Below are positions 2,753-15,733 of a DNA stretch of 64,000 nucleotides, piece by piece (positions within the stretch are counted from its first letter, which is position 1; the number at the start of each line of letters is the position of its first letter). This DNA comes from an uncultured Gammaproteobacteria bacterium (GTDB taxonomy: Bacteria; Patescibacteriota; Patescibacteriia; Magasanikbacterales; JBBTQS01): contig OZ246400.1 of assembly GCA_965230935.1 (NCBI GenBank), forward strand, positions 4,090 to 68,089, given 5' to 3'. The notes below the pieces were generated by a model. That model saw only the letters and a program-made list of their open reading frames with translations, was not told the DNA's origin and made no database searches. Position numbers and translations under genes: made by a program.

Positions 2753-3127
2753 CAGTATGATTTTGTATGATCTTTCATCAGCAAAAATGGCTACTCATTA
2801 AGTGGCTATTTTTGTTTTCAAATAAAAAACAGCACCCCAGCGTTGCGCCAGAGTGCGTGAAGGAAAAGGGTTAGACGGGCTCGAACGCGACGCAAGCTCC
2901 TACACAAGTATCGCGAACGGCCCACCACGACGGAGGTTCCAATGGAATTACATCATGGTGAACTTCGCCCGCCTTACCCAGCTCCGCAGTGTTCACCGCG
3001 GAACTTGTATCTGAAGTGCCCAAGGGCAAGGGAGTAGTGATCCCCCGCCCCCAGGCCGGTTGTGGTGTTCACCGCGTGATGCGAGGACCCTGGCAGGTCA
3101 CTCAAATCACGCAAGAAGGAGTACGAA

Positions 3128-3400
3128 ATGCACTCGTCCCCCTGCCCGCGTTGCGGATTCTTCCACCCCCGAGACCCAAGGAGTTCACCAAGGGTCAATT
3201 GTTTTGATCAATTGCGCGGGCGGCGAAGGGGATCCGACCCCCCTTCAACCACCCACGACTTCGGCTGCAGACAGATCCTGAGACCACGCCGTCAGACCGG
3301 CATGACCTCGCAATCGAGACAAGGAAACACGCTAATGAGAACTTGCCCCTTCTGCTGTAACTGTCTTCGTCCGCGTGTAAACAAGTATACAAAATACTGA
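3128..3400 (+). CDS. small Cys-rich basic ORF inside the GC-rich island (possible zinc ribbon: CPRC...CPFCC)
   Basis: AAGGAG Shine-Dalgarno 7 nt upstream of ATG 3128, and the stop overlaps a perfect hairpin. The Arg-rich composition could instead be a wrong-frame artefact of GC-rich DNA. Confidence 0.25.
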   Translation: MHSSPCPRCGFFHPRDPRSSPRVNCFDQLRGRRRGSDPPSTTHDFGCRQILRPRRQTGMTSQSRQGNTLMRTCPFCCNCLRPRVNKYTKY

Positions 3401-3425
3401 ACACCTGTCAAGTACAGGTGTTCAG
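3397..3425 (+). terminator. perfect 11-bp-stem hairpin (CTGAACACCTG-tcaagta-CAGGTGTTCAG)
   Basis: Perfect inverted repeat read directly from the sequence. No strong U-tract follows, so it could equally be an operator or RNA hairpin. Confidence 0.4.
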
Positions 3426-3574
3426 TCAAGATCGACGATAGATATTCCAGAGAATCCGAATGTATTGGCTCACTTGACTCATCTCCCACTCATTCAGTTC
3501 GGAAAACGGGAAGTTCGGCCCACCAATGCAAAAAGGCGCCTAATTTAGCAGCCTTTTTCATTCTTCTAAAGCAT

Positions 3575-3607
3575 TGACATTGTTCACTTTTTGTGGTGAA
3601 ATAGAAT
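3575..3607 (+). promoter_or_regulatory. sigma70-like promoter (TTGACATTGT ... TGAAAT/TAGAAT) inside an AT-rich pocket of the GC island
   Basis: TTGACA at 3575-3580, TGAAAT at 17-nt spacing, followed by TAGAAT. It shares the 11-mer ATTGACATTGT and TAGAAT with the tRNA-Thr promoter at 5809-5837. Confidence 0.45.
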
Positions 3608-3685
3608 TTGCCCTCTTGATTCGAGTAGGGTCTGCCAAACAATCCATTTGTTTTGAAGACCTTCTTCGTATCGTCCGGAGAGGCG

Positions 3686-3828
3686 CGCTCGGCGTGAAAA
3701 TACAGACCACAACAACGGTGTTGTAACATGTCGCTCGGTGACATGGTTTGTCAGAATTTCCCCAGACGAATAGTGCTCGGCACTAGGGGTGCTACGTGCA
3801 TAGCAATGTGCTGTTTCACTCGGTGAGA
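3686..3828 (+). repeat. four direct repeats of (C)GCTCGG(C/T)(G/A) at ~42-46-nt periodicity in the leader upstream of the 3861 ORF
   Basis: GCTCGG at 3687, 3733 and 3775, and ACTCGG at 3818. Four copies of a 6-mer in ~140 nt at a regular period are unlikely by chance. Confidence 0.4.
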
Positions 3829-3860
3829 CAAGTGGTGATTCTTTAGAAGACGGAGGAACC

Positions 3861-4724
3861 GTGGACGATCAAGTCTATAAACGGTATCTCGAGCTCGCGA
3901 AACTTCTTAGGAGATGCGGGCTCTTCAGTGTTTACCTGGCTATCATGATGGCAGCCAGGTCGCGCAAGCAGTTCGACACCATGATGGCGGAGCTGCCTGA
4001 CCACGCACGACTGATGCGCGAGGATCAGGTGGTGCTCTGGAAGGCTCTCAGCGCTGTCTGGGGGAAGGGTATTCCGACGGCAGATCACCTGAACTTGGCG
4101 GGGCGTGAGCTCCTGTTCAAGCCGGTGTTCGACGATCCGAAGGCCACTCTCGTCTGGTACTACAAGTTCGTGTTGTGTAAGGACCGTGAGCCTGCGAGCC
4201 TTTCCGCCTATGGGATTGGCCGACAGGACGAGCGACGCCTCATTCATGGTATCGAGGAGCGTTCGGGACGTGGGGCGCAGCACTTCTCGGTTCAGTGTGC
4301 TGGTCAGCTCTTCAGCGTCGGCTGCAACCTATTCGATGATGTCATGCTGGTGGAGTTCGAGCTTTCTGTCAAGAACCTCACCGAGCAGATGACACAGGCC
4401 ATCCGCAGCTGTAAGTCGCTGATGCGTCTGAACACGCGTCGTGGCTCAAGCGTTGATGACAAGGTGACCTTCGTCGTCGAGCTCAGCAACGTGGATGACC
4501 TGGCCGCCGTGGTCACCCAAGTCGAAACGGGGTGTGGACCTCTCGACCTGCTCGATCCTGACGACTTCACATTCGAGCGCCTGCTCACGGCGCGTCTTCG
4601 TGATCTGGAGCTGCCGCTCGAGTCGTCGGTCGGTCGAGTCGTCGACCACAACCCTGCGCTGAAGCATCACTTCCCCAAACATCCTGAGGGGCAGTGGAGC
4701 ATCCAGTTCCCGGCCATGGACTAA
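3861..4724 (+). CDS. hypothetical protein (GC-rich island cargo)
   Basis: GTG start with GGAGGA Shine-Dalgarno at 3852-3857, a 287-codon open frame, and a terminator hairpin after the stop. No family recognised. Confidence 0.6.
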   Translation: MDDQVYKRYLELAKLLRRCGLFSVYLAIMMAARSRKQFDTMMAELPDHARLMREDQVVLWKALSAVWGKGIPTADHLNLAGRELLFKPVFDDPKATLVWYYKFVLCKDREPASLSAYGIGRQDERRLIHGIEERSGRGAQHFSVQCAGQLFSVGCNLFDDVMLVEFELSVKNLTEQMTQAIRSCKSLMRLNTRRGSSVDDKVTFVVELSNVDDLAAVVTQVETGCGPLDLLDPDDFTFERLLTARLRDLELPLESSVGRVVDHNPALKHHFPKHPEGQWSIQFPAMD

Positions 4725-4764
4725 CCTCCATCGTGGTCTAAACTCACAAAACAAACACAACCAG

Positions 4765-4800
4765 AACGCAACCCTACGGGTTGTCGTTTTGTTTAGTTTT
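4765..4800 (+). terminator. rho-independent terminator
   Basis: Stem (ACG)CAACCC / GGGTTG(CGT) followed by a T-rich tract tcgttttgtttagtttt. Confidence 0.5.
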
Positions 4801-4957
4801 GATTTGTTACTGATTCATCCGGCTTGTAAATCTTCCCAAAATCAAAACACACCATCGTTGGTGTGTCTTGTTGGTTTGCCTAAACTTCCGTCATCTCCTG
4901 CGACGGCAATGCCTAGGGCTTGCTCGGATGACCGAGTGCGCCGCCACGCGCTCCCGA

Positions 4958-5570
4958 TCAGTCCTTGATGCGGACCACGCCGTCCGTGCCGACCTCCAGG
5001 GTCTGCTCGACGATGGCCGCCGCCACCGAGGCGTTGAGGCTGGTCCACAGCGTGTTGGTCGCGACGGCCTTCGCCAGCTCCCGGTCGCGCGCGAGGTCCG
5101 TCAGCTCGCAGCGCGCCGAGGTGAAGCCGTCCTGAGCCGCCGCGAGCCGAGCCAGGTTGGCCGGATCGCAGAACGGGTCCGCCAGGTCGTCCACCAGGAC
5201 CACGATGGCGTCGTCCACGTGCTCCTCGATCTCGGTCGCGTTGCCCTTGGTGCACTTGCCGACCACCGGCGTGGCGTCCTCGACGTTGCTCGGACCACCG
5301 GCGGGGTTGCTGTGGTTGCCGCCGACCAGCTCGACCTCGGTGAACTCCACACACAGGATGAACGAGTTGGGGTGCTGCGCCGTGAGCTCGGAGATGAGCT
5401 CGTCGGTGCAGTCGCCCTCCTCCTCGTACGTCAGCGTGCTGCTCCCGTCCTTGGCTTGGACCTCGATCTCGGCGACGGTCGTGGTCTGCGCGAGGGCGGT
5501 GGCGGGGACGGCGAAGGTGGCGGCGATGGCGGCGATGCAAAGAACGAACTCGATACCATAGTGACGCATG
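4958..5570 (-). CDS. hypothetical secreted protein (GC-rich island cargo)
   Basis: Internal ATG at 5570 gives MRHYGIEFVLCIAAIAATFAVPATALAQ, a clear signal peptide, with GGAG just upstream. It lies in the longest frame, 4958-5710. Several acidic, Cys-containing segments follow. Confidence 0.55.
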
Positions 5571-5808
5571 GATCTTCTCCCTTTCGATGATGCGCGTTCG
5601 ATGTGGGGTGTGAAGGATTCCTTCCCTCCTACTGCATCTCGCTTCCCACTTGGCGAGATGAGGTCCCTAACTCCCTCCTCGGAAGATTGAAACAGTAGAC
5701 TATAGCACATTTGGACGGTTTTGTCAAGGGTGTCAAAGTAACAATTTAGCTAAAATAAGGTTAATTTGATAAAATAGGCCAATTTCCCCCCGGATAAATT
5801 AGGCTAAA

Positions 5809-5837
5809 TTGACATTGTGGTAATTTGAAGGTAGAAT
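5809..5837 (+). promoter_or_regulatory. sigma70 promoter for tRNA-Thr (TTGACA-17-TAGAAT) with upstream A/T-rich repeated motifs
   Basis: Consensus -35 TTGACA, a 17-nt spacer and TAGAAT. Repeated AAAATA(A)GG..AATTT motifs at 5745-5806 resemble a UP element. Two hairpins in the leader precede the tRNA. Confidence 0.6.
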
Positions 5838-5938
5838 ATAGGGGCAAAAGTTGTCTTGCCGCCAACCTTAGCAACTTCGTCGCTAAGGTTGCTCGTTCGG
5901 AAAAGCATGAACGCAAGCGTTCAGCTTTTCACTCACTC

Positions 5939-6012
5939 GCCACCTTAGCTCATCTGGCTAGAGCGACGGTTTTGTAAACCGTAGGTACCGGGTTCGAGTC
6001 CCGGAGGTGGCT
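5939..6012 (+). tRNA. tRNA-Thr (anticodon TGT)
   Basis: Acceptor GCCACCT/AGGTGGC, anticodon stem ACGGT/ACCGT with loop TTTGTAA (UGU), T-arm CCGGGTTCGAGTCCCGG. Confidence 0.9.
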
Positions 6013-6101
6013 CACTTTCGAGGATGTACAGGCCGTGTTTATGGTGGTACATCTCACGGAATCCATTGCGGTCTACACTGAGGTTGATAACGAATCAACC
6101 T

Positions 6102-7844
6102 ATGGAAATCGACAGACTCCTGATGGAGTTCGCCGGGGACCGCGTGGCCTTGCGCGGCTACTCGCCCCACACAATGCGGCGCCAAGTGCAGGCGGCGCGA
6201 CAGTTCTTCACGGTCACCGGCATCGGCGCCCTATCAGAGGTGAGCTACGACGTGGACGCCCGCCAGAGCCAACAGCTACGCGATGAAACTGACTTGACCG
6301 CTGAGCAGGTTCAGCCGAGCAGTTCGCCGAACTGGTGGCAGTTTCTCACGCTCCCGAAGGGGCGCGTACGTCAGTACTGGACGCGTGCAGCCCGCGAGGT
6401 GGTTAGGGAGGTTGAGGCTTCAGAGTCCCCACTGGTCTTCATCACCTTCCATGCGAAATATCAAAGCGATGTGTACCGATGGCGGTTCTCACCATGTAAT
6501 CCGGTGCTGCTGCAAACGATAGGCATCAGAGCCTTCTTTACCCTCATCGATGATGTCTACCAGATGCACAAGCGGCGTCCCGGAGACATTCAGAGCGAAC
6601 GTCAGATGTGCTTCAAGTACGAAGATCCGGCGGAGCGCGCGCTCGCCCTGGTGAGAGAGACTAAGGCTTCCCTCGTCGAGCTGATCAGGTGGCGGCAAGA
6701 GGAGATTGCGACGACGGAGATGCTTGCGGCTGTGTCCGGTTGTTCTGCGCAGCTCGTGTCGATCCGACATCCGCTGGCCACGATGCACAAGCTGTTGGAA
6801 TCACCCGAGTCGGCATTTTACTTCTCACATCCGATTACTGGAGTTCGCGCCGACCCGAACTTTCCGGACGTGGTTGGTCTGAAGGAGATCGAGGATATCT
6901 CAAGCGAGCTCCGCGGTCGCTTCACACTGATTGAACCAACTACTATTGACGAGTACAGGATTGAGCAGCTGGGGCAGGGCACCCCCGCACCGCGTCTGAT
7001 TCCTCGACTGTCATGCCGATGGCCGTTCCCGGCTGGTGAGGACGAGATGCTTGGCGGCTCCGACGGCTTTCCCACGTTCGGTAAGCAAGAACTGCTCTGT
7101 CCGCGCGAGAACGTCGTCGCGCTAGAGTTGGAGGAATTCTTCGCGGATTTGCTGGCCGGAACCGCCCCGGAGGAGCCCACACATCTGGTTTCGGAGTCGA
7201 TCGGTGGCTTGGTTGATCTGCTAAAAGAAGACATCACCTGGCGGGATCACACGCTTGTAGACCAATGCGGACGCCTCGTGGTGTTCCGCCCGGCGTACCG
7301 CGGGATTCCGTCGACCGGAGTTCGCAGAGAGATTGAGTACTATCGGAAGCTAGCTCTTAGCGGTCCACAAGACAAACACTTCTGCGTATTGCTTCACCCG
7401 CCGGACGACGATGACGCCTTGGCCCAGTACATAGCGTTGAAACTTGTTTCTTCGTGGGCCGAGGACTCGGGCGTGGGCCCGCACATTCGACCACGTCTTG
7501 ATGTCGGGGCCGAAAATCAACTCATTCGAGACCTGACGGTCGCGCTCGGCAGCGACGCCGATGAGGAGACCACGGCCCGAGCATGTGCGGATGCGCTTTC
7601 CCCACGGATTGAACCGGAAGTCAGCGGACCGTCCCCAATGACGAGTGGTCGTCGTGTCGGAGCGCGAACAAGGAACAAAGAGGTCTTGCAGGCGGCCGCA
7701 GCCCGCGCGCTGTCGACGATACAAGATCACCGCTACTTTCGCTCTGGCGGCCTGATGCCAGGACGCGCGGCCGCCACTGACGATGCACGGCCACCACAAC
7801 CCTGCTGTTTTCTGAGTAATACGCCGTTTGGTGCAGTCGTTTAA
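6102..7844 (+). CDS. large hypothetical protein; the N-terminus resembles the core-binding (SAM-like) domain of tyrosine recombinases
   Basis: LMEFAGDRVALRGYSPHTMRRQVQAARQFF follows the XerC/XerD N-domain pattern (..RGLS.NT..AYRRDL..F). No canonical R-K-H-R-H-Y catalytic domain was recognised. Only weak RH...Y resemblance at RHPLATMHKLLESPESAFYFSH. The frame is open from 6024. Confidence 0.5.
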   Translation: MEIDRLLMEFAGDRVALRGYSPHTMRRQVQAARQFFTVTGIGALSEVSYDVDARQSQQLRDETDLTAEQVQPSSSPNWWQFLTLPKGRVRQYWTRAAREVVREVEASESPLVFITFHAKYQSDVYRWRFSPCNPVLLQTIGIRAFFTLIDDVYQMHKRRPGDIQSERQMCFKYEDPAERALALVRETKASLVELIRWRQEEIATTEMLAAVSGCSAQLVSIRHPLATMHKLLESPESAFYFSHPITGVRADPNFPDVVGLKEIEDISSELRGRFTLIEPTTIDEYRIEQLGQGTPAPRLIPRLSCRWPFPAGEDEMLGGSDGFPTFGKQELLCPRENVVALELEEFFADLLAGTAPEEPTHLVSESIGGLVDLLKEDITWRDHTLVDQCGRLVVFRPAYRGIPSTGVRREIEYYRKLALSGPQDKHFCVLLHPPDDDDALAQYIALKLVSSWAEDSGVGPHIRPRLDVGAENQLIRDLTVALGSDADEETTARACADALSPRIEPEVSGPSPMTSGRRVGARTRNKEVLQAAAARALSTIQDHRYFRSGGLMPGRAAATDDARPPQPCCFLSNTPFGAVV

Positions 7845-8046
7845 TTGCGCTTCGCAACGGTAGTCGGCCGACTCCTCACTGAGAAGAGGCGTTCGCATTT
7901 GCGAACACTGGACCGAACTGGCACCTGCAGCCGCCCGGGCTAGACAGATCCGCATGAGAAATGTTACTGTTGATCCGTCCCGCATGGCCCCGACCGGTTG
8001 AGAGTTGTTGCGGCGCTAAATTTAGCTAATCCAATAGAACAACCCC

Positions 8047-8090
8047 TTTGTAAACCGTAGGTACTGGGTTCGAGTCCCAGAGGTGGCTCA
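8047..8090 (+). repeat. attR-like direct repeat: displaced copy of the tRNA-Thr 3' half
   Basis: 42 of 44 bp are identical to 5969-6012, and the two mismatches are compensatory within the T-stem. Confidence 0.75.
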
Positions 8091-8139
8091 AGGAAGGATA
8101 AAAAAGCCATGGGGACGTAGTGAGCGAAAGCGAACGTCT

Positions 8140-8161
8140 GTCCCAGAGGTGGCTCAAGGAG
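8140..8161 (+). repeat. second tandem copy of the tRNA 3' terminus (GTCCCAGAGGTGGCTCAAGGAG)
   Basis: 21 of 22 bp match 8074-8095, about 45 bp downstream. The intervening sequence contains a GGACG/CGTCC hairpin. Confidence 0.6.
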
Positions 8162-8174
8162 TAACCAAAATACT

Positions 8175-8330
8175 ATGTCACAAGATAATCTGACTAGAAT
8201 GGAGTGTACTGGGTGCCAGCAAGTAACCCATCACACCAAGAAAAATAAAAAGAAGCTTAAAGACCGCCTTACCCTCAAAAAGGGGTGTAAGTTTTGTGGT
8301 AAGCATACCGACCACAAGGAGACGAAGTAA
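8175..8330 (+). CDS. rpmG: 50S ribosomal protein L33 (zinc-ribbon form)
   Basis: 51-aa ORF MSQDNLTRMECTGCQQVTHHTKKNKKKLKDRLTLKKGCKFCGKHTDHKETK. It matches the L33 pattern ..C..C....TKKNKRN....LELKK.C..C.KHT.H.E.K. It is absent from the ORF track because it is under 60 aa. Confidence 0.85.
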   Translation: MSQDNLTRMECTGCQQVTHHTKKNKKKLKDRLTLKKGCKFCGKHTDHKETK

Positions 8331-8377: not shown

Positions 8378-8827
8378 ATGGCATTTCGCATATGTACAAC
8401 GTGTTTCGTCAAAAAGCCTGTAGAACATTTTAGTGTACGAGATATTCGGATCGGTCGGCGACATCGAGTATGTAAGATGTGTCACAAAACGTATCGTCGT
8501 AAGCATTACCTGCGTAATAAAGAGAAGTACATTAAAAAGGCGCGCAGGTGGAATGGGAAACAACGTAAGAGTATAGAAGATTTTTTATTCCGATATTTAT
8601 CAAAACACCCTTGTATTGATTGTGGGGAGGGTGACGTGGTGGTACTTGATTTTGATCATCGCTATGATAAGCGCATGGCGATCACGCAGATGATGAAGAA
8701 TTGCTACGCACTTGAAACGATCAAGAAAGAGATAAAGAAATGTGAAGTTCGTTGTGCTAATTGCCATAGAAGGCGAACTGCTATAGAATGTGGGTACTGG
8801 AAAATTAAACGTCAATTGGGCCCATAG
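8378..8827 (+). CDS. HNH endonuclease (free-standing, homing-endonuclease-like)
   Basis: N-terminal Cys-rich zinc-binding region (CTTCF...CKMCH), then an HNH core CIDCGE...LDFDHRYDK...CANCHRRRT. Confidence 0.8.
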   Translation: MAFRICTTCFVKKPVEHFSVRDIRIGRRHRVCKMCHKTYRRKHYLRNKEKYIKKARRWNGKQRKSIEDFLFRYLSKHPCIDCGEGDVVVLDFDHRYDKRMAITQMMKNCYALETIKKEIKKCEVRCANCHRRRTAIECGYWKIKRQLGP

Positions 8828-8897
8828 TTTCAATTGGCAAAACGCAAGTCTCCAAAACTTGAGTTCTTCGTTCAAATCGAAGTGGGCCTGCCAATCT

Positions 8898-14884: not shown

Positions 14885-15733
14885 ATGAATAGATTCAGCG
14901 ATAGTATAGCATATTATGGAGATAGTTTGCATGTCACTCTTGGTGCTTACACCAAGGCATGCTATAGTACGCTAACGTCTTTCTTCATGATTATGCGTAA
15001 CCAAGCTAATCATCACGAGCATATGCTGTATGAGCATGCTCGCCAGTGGCTCATGCTTATTGTTCGGTATTGTTTTGCAGATGCAACTGTGGTGTTTACC
15101 GGATCGCATGAAAAAGGTACCGCCATCTCGCCACTTACTGATATTGATTGTTTAGTGGTGTTTGTTGATCAAACCTATCGATCTGATGATCCAGCAGAAT
15201 TTATGAGGTGGTTCATGAACGCGTTGTCTCAACGCGCGCCACATACTTCTATGGTCCTTCGTGCACATGCGATTACTGTCCAGTATTGCGCGCAAATGTA
15301 TATTGATCTTACTCCGGCTATACAAACGAGGTATGGTGGGTACATGATTCCGGAAGTATTTCCGTATACTGTCGCGCGGTGGGTGTACTCAAATCCAGAT
15401 CACCATATTATGCGTTTGCGAAATGAGAATCAGCGGCATCGTGGGATACTCCTTGATATTATTCGACAGGTCAAACAGTGGCGAAATCAACATTGTCCCT
15501 ATATCAAATCGTTTCATTTGGAAAGTTTGATTATCGAAAGTTTGCGCCATAAAGATGTTCTTTCCGTAGTACAGGGATGTCAATTATTTTTTGCTCGTGC
15601 TCTGCGATTGTCACAAATGCCATGCCTGCGTGATAGTGCAAATCCAATGCGATTAGTTGATGACTACCTTACCCTTGAACAGCGAGAGGATTTTCTTCAT
15701 CAATTGACTCAAGCGCAGACTTGCATTGCATGA
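14885..15733 (+). CDS. Pol-beta-superfamily nucleotidyltransferase, cGAS/DncV-like (CD-NTase/SMODS-type) motif arrangement
   Basis: [23 protein letters not shown] matches the hG[GS]x9-13DhDh motif. The third-Asp strand MYIDLTPAI matches hDhhPA. A C-terminal helix [10 protein letters not shown]...[11 protein letters not shown] resembles the conserved K-S-x-h-h-E-h-L helix of CD-NTases/OAS/Mab21. The frame is open from 14705; the ATG at 14885 was chosen. Confidence 0.65.

What the first reader, a model, noticed from the sequence alone, without database searches (positions are those of the whole stretch)
5939..8161. Compact GC-rich integrative element inserted in tRNA-Thr, bounded by a 44-bp direct repeat with a compensatory T-stem change
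The tRNA-Thr 3' half (5969-6012) recurs at 8047-8090 with exactly two changes. These are a complementary pair (C to T and G to A), so both copies keep a perfectly paired T-stem. That is the signature of attL/attR formed by site-specific integration, where the element supplies a new 3' half and displaces the host one. The ~2.1-kb segment between them is visibly GC-rich against AT-rich flanks and encodes only one large ORF. A second copy of the last 22 bp of the repeat lies ~45 bp further on (8140-8161). An element this small with a single unrecognised gene would be an unusual minimal integrative element.
Basis: seen in the sequence. Interest (0 to 1): 0.75.

Follow-up and report, generated by a model that had tools for sequence, protein, structure and literature searches.

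The report
Decayed foreign islet in tRNA-Thr gene
A 2.1-kb piece of foreign, GC-rich DNA really did insert into a threonine tRNA gene of a tiny (Patescibacteria-type) bacterium. It is an ordinary, non-autonomous leftover with no recombinase, and its single gene looks like an orphaned part of a nucleotide-based anti-phage cassette.

Summary
The tRNA-Thr(UGU) gene lies at 5939-6013. Its last 44 bp (5971-6014) recur at 8047-8090 with two changes that are a compensatory T-stem pair. A 21-bp third copy lies at 8140-8160. The DNA between the copies is about 58% GC against about 45% outside.

A related genome (L100) and four more distant relatives have tRNA-Thr followed directly by rpmG, 27-77 bp apart. 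That is the empty site. Both junctions were rebuilt independently from separate sequencing runs. Insertion by recombination in the anticodon loop is therefore well supported.

The "minimal self-mobile element" reading is not supported. The 580-aa ORF matches no recombinase profile. Its model is an adenylate-kinase-like domain with a degenerate P-loop, plus a nucleoside-2-deoxyribosyltransferase/MilB-like domain.

Its homologues have no tRNA on any of the 12 sequenced loci and no integrase among their neighbouring genes. They are the middle gene of a three-gene cassette in defence islands: a MazG-GGDEF or deaminase protein, the 580-aa protein, then a ~74-aa protein. Here both partners are missing.

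Best reading: an integrase-less, att-flanked remnant (CIME-like) at an insertion hot spot. Interest is low to moderate.

The parts
5939..6013 (+). Intact tRNA-Thr(UGU). It functions as attL: the 5' part is host, and the 3' part from the anticodon loop onward is inferred to come from the element.
   Evidence: ARAGORN. Rfam tRNA at 65.6 bits. Cloverleaf fold.
5971..6014 (+). Left copy of the 44-bp direct repeat, running from the anticodon loop to the 3' end plus CA. T-stem CCGGG/CCCGG.
6015..6101 (+). Element-side left arm and 5' untranslated region of the ORF, with intermediate GC (about 0.46-0.56).
6102..7844 (+). The only gene, 580 aa (called from 6123 as 573 aa). It has an N-terminal adenylate-kinase-like domain with a degenerate P-loop (roughly 6102-6806). 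It then has a nucleoside-2-deoxyribosyltransferase/MilB/Rcl/TIR-like domain (roughly 6807-7480) and a helical tail.
7845..8015 (.). GC-rich non-coding tail of the insert. It holds a perfect 7-bp palindrome, GTTCGCA/TGCGAAC, at about 7889-7904. No remnant of the ~74-aa partner gene is found here.
8016..8046 (+). AT-rich element-side right arm. It is a degenerate image of the tRNA's 5' part and contains AATTTAGCTAA.
   Evidence: 12 of 5000 shuffles reach the score.
8047..8090 (+). Right copy of the 44-bp repeat (attR core), inferred to be the displaced host 3' half. T-stem CTGGG/CCCAG. It is not a tRNA on its own.
8091..8139 (.). 49-bp spacer with a hairpin (GGGGACGT...ACGTCTGTCCC). It is either the remnant of an older element or part of the native tRNA-rpmG spacer.
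   Evidence: A similar hairpin lies in the L088 spacer, but none in the closer relative L100.
8140..8160 (+). Third, partial copy (21 bp): T-stem 3' strand, acceptor 3' strand and AAGGA. It sits 14 bp before the rpmG start codon.
8175..8330 (+). rpmG (ribosomal protein L33), the native right-hand neighbour of tRNA-Thr.
   Evidence: Pfam Ribosomal_L33, E = 2e-12. tRNA-Thr is followed by rpmG in L055, L083, L087, L088 and L100.

Best explanation
Positions 6015-8046 are foreign DNA, possibly extending to 8139. This DNA entered the tRNA-Thr(UGU) gene of a Patescibacteria-type genome by site-specific recombination in the anticodon loop. That is the pattern expected of tyrosine integrases that target tRNA genes.

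The incoming DNA carried its own copy of the tRNA's 3' 44 bp. That copy now completes the working tRNA (attL). The host's original 3' half was pushed 2.1 kb downstream (attR). The two differences between the copies form a compensatory pair because each copy had served in a working tRNA.

What remains is not autonomous. The recombinase module is gone, most likely by deletion; less likely it never was on this piece and acted in trans.

The one surviving gene is cargo. It encodes a two-domain nucleotide-binding and nucleotide-processing protein: a pseudo-kinase domain plus an N-glycosidase-like domain. In other bacteria this protein is the middle gene of a three-gene cassette in defence islands. 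Both partners are missing here and its N-terminal P-loop region has degenerated.

The 21-bp third copy marks either an earlier integration whose element decayed to 49 bp (tandem accretion) or a small templated duplication.

Shown: the repeats, the foreign composition, the empty site in relatives, reproducible junctions, the absence of a detectable recombinase, and the fold and gene contexts of the ORF. Inferred: which copy is host-derived, that an integrase did the joining, and that the recombinase was lost by deletion.
For: - Repeat geometry: the sharp boundary at the anticodon loop and the compensatory pair.
- Composition: GC 0.58 inside against 0.45 outside, and GC3 0.67 against 0.31-0.39 in host genes.
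- Empty site: seen in the syntenic relative L100 and in L083, L087 and L088.
- Recurrent use of the site: another lineage, L055, carries its own partial duplicate of the tRNA-Thr 3' half. It starts in the anticodon loop, 16 bp after the tRNA.
- Real junctions: two long contigs from different runs agree over 17.8 kb with only 2 SNPs, and short contigs from other assemblies span the right junction.
- No recombinase: none in the ORF, none in fragments of the neighbouring non-coding GC-rich DNA, and none in the 64-kb window by phmmer with XerD and gamma-delta resolvase.
- Homologue contexts: the partner gene lies immediately upstream, a conserved ~74-aa gene lies downstream, and Gabija-like, HsdM and AAA_21/DUF3226 genes are neighbours. 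No tRNA genes occur on these loci.
- Partners absent from the window.
- N-terminal degeneration of the window's copy.
- Published precedent: att-flanked, integrase-less remnants and their tandem accretion are described for CIMEs (PMC5704250).
Against: - No intact relative of the element, with an integrase next to the same att arms, was found anywhere. Scans for the tRNA halves in metagenome and viral collections gave 0 hits.
- No excision product or polymorphic empty site was seen in the same population. All contigs from four runs are occupied.
- Relatives' T-stems differ from both copies, so relatives cannot show which copy is host-derived.
- The base run left of the overlap in attR (AACCCC) is not an inverted repeat of the right core (ACCGT), as an ideal tyrosine-recombinase core would be.
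- The recombinase search in the window used single-sequence phmmer and is not very sensitive. Only 64 kb of a genome of about 1 Mb was examined.
Confidence: 0.62

Rival explanations
1. The piece is a live non-autonomous mini-element. It keeps working attL and attR and is excised and inserted in trans by an integrase encoded elsewhere in this or a co-resident genome, so it acts as a one-gene cassette.
For: Both att copies are nearly intact, 42 of 44 bp. The arms next to the cores have their own AT-richer character. The ORF is intact and keeps 71 of 73 family-invariant residues outside the first 50 aa. CIMEs can be mobilised this way (PMC5704250).
Against: No integrase was found in the 64 kb. 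No second copy, circular junction or empty allele was seen in four runs. No other instance of the arms or cores turned up in any scan. The cargo is a fragment of a cassette, which looks like decay rather than design.
Confidence: 0.14
2. No integrase was involved. A circularised foreign fragment that happened to carry a tRNA-Thr-like 44-bp stretch recombined with the host tRNA by RecA-type homologous (Campbell) recombination, for example after natural DNA uptake.
For: The same repeat geometry would result. This bacterial group is reported to be naturally competent (my own knowledge, not checked here). The region has taken up several other GC-rich pieces that show no att repeats.
Against: The homology is only 44 bp with two mismatches, and the longest exact run is 18 bp. 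The left boundary falls exactly at the first base of the anticodon loop and the right boundary at the tRNA end. That is what an attP carries, not what a random donor fragment would carry. A donor tRNA gene would have supplied homology across the whole tRNA.
Confidence: 0.1
3. The host first had a tandem duplicate of tRNA-Thr. Unrelated foreign DNA later landed between the copies, and the right copy's 5' half decayed.
For: The 32 bp left of the right copy still resemble the tRNA's 5' part. L055 shows a near-tandem partial duplicate with only 16 bp between the copies.
Against: Decay would not leave 42 of 44 identity on one side of the anticodon loop and about 60% on the other. It would not make the only two 3'-half differences a compensatory pair. 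L100, L083, L087 and L088 have a single copy.
Confidence: 0.06
4. The 580-aa ORF is itself a new kind of recombinase, so this is a minimal self-mobile element.
For: It is the only gene between the repeats and starts 88 bp after the tRNA, where integrase genes often sit. It has no family annotation.
Confidence: 0.02
5. The structure is an assembly chimera that joins a GC-rich organism's contig to the host at shared tRNA sequence.
For: tRNA sequence is a known place for mis-joins. Logan contigs break inside the GC-rich blocks, at about 4141-4151 and 7791-7983.
Against: The whole 18-kb arrangement is identical or 99.99% identical in MEGAHIT contigs from two different runs. Three further contigs from other assemblies cross the right junction from GC-rich DNA into rpmG. 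The right junction is a half-tRNA, which a chimera between two genomes would not create.
Confidence: 0.02

Closest known systems
Genomic islands and integrative elements inserted in tRNA genes by tyrosine integrases, anticodon-loop sublocation (Williams 2002, Nucleic Acids Res 30:866; cited from my own knowledge, not retrievable here)
   Same: There is an intact tRNA at one end and a direct repeat of the tRNA's 3' part from the anticodon loop to the 3' end at the other. The composition is foreign, and relatives have an empty site.
   Different: There is no integrase gene, no excisionase and no other mobility gene. The insert is only 2.1 kb with a single cargo gene. The host is a Patescibacteria-type genome.
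CIMEs, cis-mobilizable elements of Streptococcus and other Firmicutes (review PMC5704250; ICEberg 2.0, PMC6323972)
   Same: CIMEs are defined as elements that have lost integration and transfer genes but kept attL and attR. They are often found in tandem arrays with extra internal att copies (accretion), as the third copy here may be.
   Different: Derivation from an ICE or IME and mobilisation by a neighbouring ICE are not shown here. No ICE, IME or conjugation genes are nearby.
Nucleoside 2-deoxyribosyltransferase / Rcl (DNPH1) / MilB CMP-hydrolase superfamily and archaeal adenylate kinases (PDB 4ohr, 7o62, 2khz; 6ln3, 7owe)
   Different: No sequence-profile match at E <= 1. The family's P-loop lacks the Walker lysine (consensus GIPGTGV), and in this copy it is further degraded. 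The two-domain fusion and its three-gene cassette were not found in PADLOC, Pfam or the searched literature.
Nucleotide-centred anti-phage systems, such as dCTP-deaminase nucleotide-depletion defence and cyclic-nucleotide signalling systems (from my own knowledge)
   Same: The homologues' partners are a MazG-like module fused to either a GGDEF cyclase or a dCMP/cytidine deaminase domain. The cassettes sit beside Gabija-like, type I restriction-modification and AAA_21/DUF3226 genes.
   Different: No member has been tested. In the window the gene stands alone, so any such function is doubtful here.

Membership tests
tRNA-targeted integrative element / genomic island (tyrosine-integrase type) | Direct repeats made of the 3' part of the target tRNA, with an intact tRNA at one end | tested here: met
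tRNA-targeted integrative element / genomic island (tyrosine-integrase type) | Insert absent from the same site in related genomes | tested here: met
   L100 has tRNA-Thr, 73 bp, then rpmG. L083, L087 and L088 have 27-61 bp spacers.
tRNA-targeted integrative element / genomic island (tyrosine-integrase type) | Integrase gene inside the element, next to an att site | tested here: not met
   No recombinase profile hit for the ORF, its N-terminus or flanking fragments. No XerD-like or resolvase-like ORF in 64 kb. The fold is not a recombinase fold.
tRNA-targeted integrative element / genomic island (tyrosine-integrase type) | Excision to a circular form and restoration of attB | not testable with these tools
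   This needs raw reads or an experiment. All available contigs are occupied.
CIME (cis-mobilizable element) | Retains attL and attR but lacks integration and transfer genes (PMC5704250) | tested here: met
CIME (cis-mobilizable element) | Derived from an ICE or IME by deletion, and mobilisable by a related element that integrates alongside | not testable with these tools
   No related intact element was found.
P-loop nucleoside-monophosphate kinases (adenylate kinase) | Kinase fold | tested here: met
P-loop nucleoside-monophosphate kinases (adenylate kinase) | Walker A motif GxxGxGK[ST] | tested here: not met
   The family consensus is FTGIPGTGV, with no lysine. The window copy reads FAGDRVALRGYS with a 4-residue insertion, and pLDDT is below 50 at residues 13-23.
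Nucleoside 2-deoxyribosyltransferase / Rcl / MilB superfamily | Fold match | tested here: met
Nucleoside 2-deoxyribosyltransferase / Rcl / MilB superfamily | Sequence-profile membership (Pfam) and catalytic glutamate | tested here: inconclusive
   No Pfam hit. An invariant S-x-G-V-x-x-E motif is present (G401, S404, G406, V407, E410), but I did not align its equivalence to the catalytic Glu residue by residue.

The most novel reading that the evidence does not exclude
The tRNA-Tyr / tRNA-Thr / rpmG stretch of these ultra-small bacteria is a collecting site for single foreign genes, mostly defence-type and GC-rich. The genes arrive as att-flanked, integrase-less mini-cassettes moved in trans by a resident or visiting integrase. 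The 2.1-kb piece would then be a still-mobile one-gene cassette rather than a dead remnant, and its donors could be the GC-rich organisms these episymbionts live on.
Probability: 0.12. Interest if true: 0.6.

Novelty: new member of a known kind. Interest (0 to 1): 0.33.

Why it matters
The finding itself is a textbook pattern: a tRNA-anchored islet that has lost its mobility genes. It documents horizontal acquisition of GC-rich DNA by a Patescibacteria-type genome and shows that the tRNA-Thr/rpmG junction is used repeatedly in that group.

Two by-products may be worth more than the finding:

1. The cargo gene belongs to a large, unannotated family of about 1,160 cluster representatives. Its members are pseudo-kinase plus N-glycosidase-like proteins. 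They form a conserved three-gene cassette with MazG-GGDEF or deaminase proteins inside defence islands. This is a candidate untested anti-phage system.

2. A ~190-nt structured RNA lies upstream of the neighbouring gene and has six compensatory pairs between two genomes.

Tried and rejected
- **Integrase N-terminus idea.** The ORF's N-terminus (RGYSPHTMRRQVQAARQFF) looked like the SAM-like N-terminal domain of a tyrosine recombinase fused by deletion. Pfam at E <= 10 on the 62- and 107-aa peptides gave nothing. The alignment shows the segment is a diverged version of the family's own N-terminus. Rejected.
- **Empty site via GreA synteny in reference genomes.** GreA-tRNA synteny is not conserved even in the closest MAGs, so most of the 80 loci were uninformative. 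Four happened to contain tRNA-Thr-rpmG.
- **Exact and degenerate scans for att halves.** I scanned for the reconstructed host tRNA, the donor-type 3' half and a relaxed T-stem pattern in metagenome and viral collections. All returned 0.
- **L33 exact-protein look-up.** Not on record.
- **ORF against plasmids and phages (tblastn).** No match. One distant relative (27% identity) sits on an IMG/VR contig with no tRNA; not pursued.
- **tRNA-Tyr duplicate bounding the first GC-rich block.** None found.
- **Integrase remnants in non-coding GC-rich DNA.** None found.
- **Secreted-protein gene 4958-5569.** No homologues.
- **AFDB fold library.** Unavailable.
- **Literature.** No description found of the cassette or of such islets in Patescibacteria.
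- **Covariance model of the leader RNA.** It found only its two training sequences in 1.4 Mb of held loci.
Full report
**1. The observation**

ARAGORN finds three tRNA genes in the window: tRNA-Tyr at 2671-2753, tRNA-Thr(TGT) at 5939-6013 and tRNA-Trp at 8818-8893. Rfam finds the same three and nothing else between 2400 and 9200.

The last 44 bp of tRNA-Thr plus two bases (5971-6014) recur at 8047-8090 with two mismatches. Shuffled sequence gives 0.00 such matches.

The mismatches are C5989/T8065 and G6003/A8079. These are the two sides of one T-stem base pair. Both the present tRNA and a tRNA rebuilt from the host 5' part plus the right-hand copy fold as cloverleaves.

Identity begins exactly at the first base of the 7-nt anticodon loop (TTTGTAA) and ends just past the tRNA's 3' end.

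A third copy of 21 bp, not 22, lies at 8140-8160. It is identical to 8074-8094 and includes five bases beyond the tRNA end.

GC is 0.58 across 5851-8150 and 0.446 in the window outside 2836-8100.

**2. The junctions are real**

- The window is 100% identical over its first 18 kb to a 74-kb MEGAHIT contig from run ERR2281801.
- It is 99.99% identical (2 SNPs) to a 108-kb contig from run ERR2281800.
- Three short contigs from other assemblies (Logan ERR2281800, Logan ERR2281801, ENA ERR2281804) start inside the GC-rich DNA and run through the right-hand copy into rpmG.
- Contigs from the left side are also colinear.
- No contig from this project shows an empty site.

**3. Relatives have the empty site**

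The host looks like a member of the Patescibacteria. Its GreA relatives are MAGs named Magasanikbacteria, Falkowbacteria or Patescibacteria group. The three closest MAG titles say "uncultured Gammaproteobacteria", which I treat as unreliable labels.

Synteny around GreA is not conserved. Even so, four of those loci contain tRNA-Tyr, then tRNA-Thr(UGU), then rpmG, with only 27-77 bp between tRNA-Thr and rpmG.

A much closer relative, L100, came to light through the neighbouring gene. Its ABC transporter is 70% identical in protein and its L33 is 78% identical, and the downstream gene order is the same. It has:
- tRNA-Tyr;
- a homologue of the 287-aa ORF;
- tRNA-Thr(UGU);
- a 73-bp spacer;
- rpmG;
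- tRNA-Trp.

It has no duplicate and no 580-aa gene.

One distant relative, L055, has its own partial copy of the tRNA-Thr 3' half. That copy begins in the anticodon loop, 16 bp after the tRNA. The same site has therefore been hit, and has decayed, in another lineage.

**4. What the insert carries**

The only long + strand ORF is 6102-7844 (580 aa; gene callers give 573 aa). It has no hit at E <= 1 in Pfam, NCBIfam, PHROGs or PADLOC, and nothing meaningful in PDB sequences.

It is not an orphan. A word-indexed search found 15 relatives at 35-47% identity. A profile search found 1,163 cluster representatives, 277 of them below 1e-30. Distant members also lack annotation, except for fusions to a Ser/Thr kinase of the PD-T4-6 type or to TPR repeats.

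The family's glycine-rich loop lacks the Walker lysine (consensus FTGIPGTGV). In the window's copy it reads FAGDRVALRGYS and is modelled with low confidence.

The copy keeps 77 of the 85 residues that are invariant in its 13 closest relatives. Six of the eight losses fall in the first 50 residues.

**5. What the homologues' neighbourhoods say**

I examined six independent contexts.
- In three of them (those of P0004, P0006 and P0008), a ~440-aa MazG-like plus GGDEF protein lies immediately upstream and often overlaps the gene.
- In two (P0002, P0005), a ~450-aa protein with a dCMP/cytidine deaminase domain lies upstream.
- In one (P0012), the upstream gene is uncharacterised and cut by the contig end.

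The deaminase protein and the GGDEF proteins share a ~240-residue module (BLASTP 8e-32). A conserved 72-89-aa protein follows the 580-aa gene in three lineages.

Neighbouring genes include:
- a Gabija-like pair (AAA_15/DUF2813 plus UvrD helicase);
- HsdM;
- AAA_21 plus DUF3226;
- a 1,749-aa ATPase.

None of 12 homologue loci holds a tRNA gene. Their GC is 0.53-0.64, which fits the composition of the window's copy.

The window contains no trace of either partner gene. The gene is therefore cargo and not machinery, and it is a fragment of a larger unit.

**6. No recombinase was found**

- No recombinase profile matches the ORF, its N-terminal peptide, or six-frame fragments of the non-coding GC-rich DNA.
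That search has limited sensitivity.

**7. How it most likely arose**

The sharp identity boundary at the anticodon loop is the classical picture of a tyrosine-integrase attP recombining with a tRNA gene (Williams 2002, from memory). So are the extension of identity to the tRNA's end and the regeneration of a working tRNA.

The compensatory pair is expected if each 3' half had served in a working tRNA before the event.

The 32 bp left of the right-hand copy still resemble the tRNA's 5' part (p about 0.002-0.006). This fits an attP that descends from a tRNA gene.

The arms next to both cores are less GC-rich than the cargo. This hints at a backbone adapted to AT-richer hosts that had picked up a GC-rich gene.

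The integrase module is missing and the cargo is an incomplete cassette, so I read the piece as a decayed remnant. Elements that keep attL and attR but have lost integration and transfer genes are called CIMEs. Extra internal att copies arise when further elements integrate in tandem (PMC5704250).

The third copy here may be such a relic, with 49 bp of an older element left. Alternatively, the 49 bp may be native spacer. L088 has a similar GGGGACG...CGTCCC hairpin and a similar GTAAC-AAAA lead-in to rpmG, although the closer relative L100 has neither. In that case the 16 extra bases are a small templated duplication. I cannot decide between the two readings.

**8. The wider region is an insertion hot spot**

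Compared with L100, the window has three further extras besides the 580-aa islet:
- 2760-3662, which is GC-rich and non-coding;
- about 4730-5938, which includes a secreted-protein gene on the minus strand (4958-5569) with GC3 of 0.94 and no homologues;
- an intact HNH endonuclease gene at 8378-8827, of which L100 keeps only a 24-residue remnant.

None of these has tRNA-derived repeats.

The 287-aa ORF (3861-4724) is shared with L100 and is GC-rich in both genomes, so it is an older acquisition.

**9. Comparison with known things, and novelty**

The piece works like a tRNA-targeted integrative island, but it fails the defining test of carrying an integrase. It meets the descriptive definition of a CIME. 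Its origin from an ICE or IME and its mobilisability cannot be tested here.

This is a new instance of a known kind of feature in an under-studied bacterial group. It is not a new kind of element.

The cargo family and its three-gene cassette appear undescribed in PADLOC 2023, Pfam and the searchable literature. They are the more original lead, but in this window the gene stands alone.

**10. Verdict**

- Observation: confirmed.
- Integration: supported.
- [quoted passage not shown]: not supported.
- Interest: 0.33.

Noticed in passing
window 3672-3862 (+); L100 1719-1909: A ~190-nt conserved leader lies directly upstream of the 287-aa ORF. It is about 87% identical between the two genomes, while the flanking host genes are 65-70% identical. 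RNAalifold predicts 62 pairs, of which 6 have changes on both sides and none is broken. Four hairpins are capped by CUCGG-type loops, and the structure ends next to the GGAGG ribosome-binding site. There is no Rfam match. A covariance model found no further copies in 1.4 Mb of held loci. This is a candidate new cis-regulatory or partner RNA.
   Followed up: partly
L001 8685-11951; L005 1458-4917; L004 3307-6518; L095 1-3438; L107 2456-5624: There is a conserved cassette of three genes: a MazG-like module fused to GGDEF or to a dCMP/cytidine deaminase, then the 580-aa pseudo-kinase/N-glycosidase-like protein, then a ~74-aa protein. It lies beside Gabija-like, HsdM and AAA_21/DUF3226 genes. It is absent from PADLOC 2023 and Pfam. 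This is a candidate untested anti-phage system.
   Followed up: partly
window 2836-3662 and 4730-5710: Two more GC-rich blocks lie between tRNA-Tyr and tRNA-Thr and are absent from the relative L100. The first has no credible ORF and no Pfam hit on its fragments. The second holds a minus-strand gene (4958-5569, 203 aa, with a signal-peptide-like start) that has GC3 of 0.94 and no homologues. The public gene call here is on the opposite strand and looks like an antisense artefact.
   Followed up: partly
window 8378-8827 (+); L100 3221-3292: An intact HNH endonuclease gene (PHROG 2255, E = 8.5e-29) sits between rpmG and tRNA-Trp. The relative L100 keeps only a 24-residue C-terminal remnant at the same place.
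   Followed up: partly
L055 11560-11600 (minus strand of the locus): In a distant Patescibacteria MAG, tRNA-Thr(UGU) is followed after 16 bp by a partial copy of its own 3' half that starts in the anticodon loop. The copy's acceptor strand (GGGCGGC) does not match the current 5' strand. It looks like a scar of integration at the same site.
   Followed up: partly
window 5743-5753 and 8019-8029: The 11-mer AATTTAGCTAA occurs exactly twice in 64 kb. One copy is 196 bp upstream of tRNA-Thr and the other is 18 bp upstream of the right-hand repeat (28 bp start to start). With one mismatch allowed there are 4 hits against 1.39 expected. Its meaning is unknown.
   Followed up: partly
window 5714-5727: GACGGTTTTGTCAA matches 13 of 14 bases of the 5' side of the tRNA-Thr anticodon arm (5965-5978). 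It sits at the right edge of the second GC-rich block. The 26 bases before it do not resemble the tRNA, so it may be chance.
   Followed up: no
window 5508 and 6425: These are the only two differences, over 17.8 kb, between the independent assemblies of runs ERR2281800 and ERR2281801. Both fall inside the foreign GC-rich blocks. The one at 6425 changes Glu to Asp in the 580-aa ORF.
   Followed up: no
window about 14885-15733 (+); L100 6137-6757: A SMODS-domain (nucleotidyltransferase) gene is conserved in both the window and the relative L100. In the window it lies next to an AAA+ ATPase gene and a 391-aa unknown gene. This may be a resident signalling or defence gene of the host lineage.
   Followed up: no
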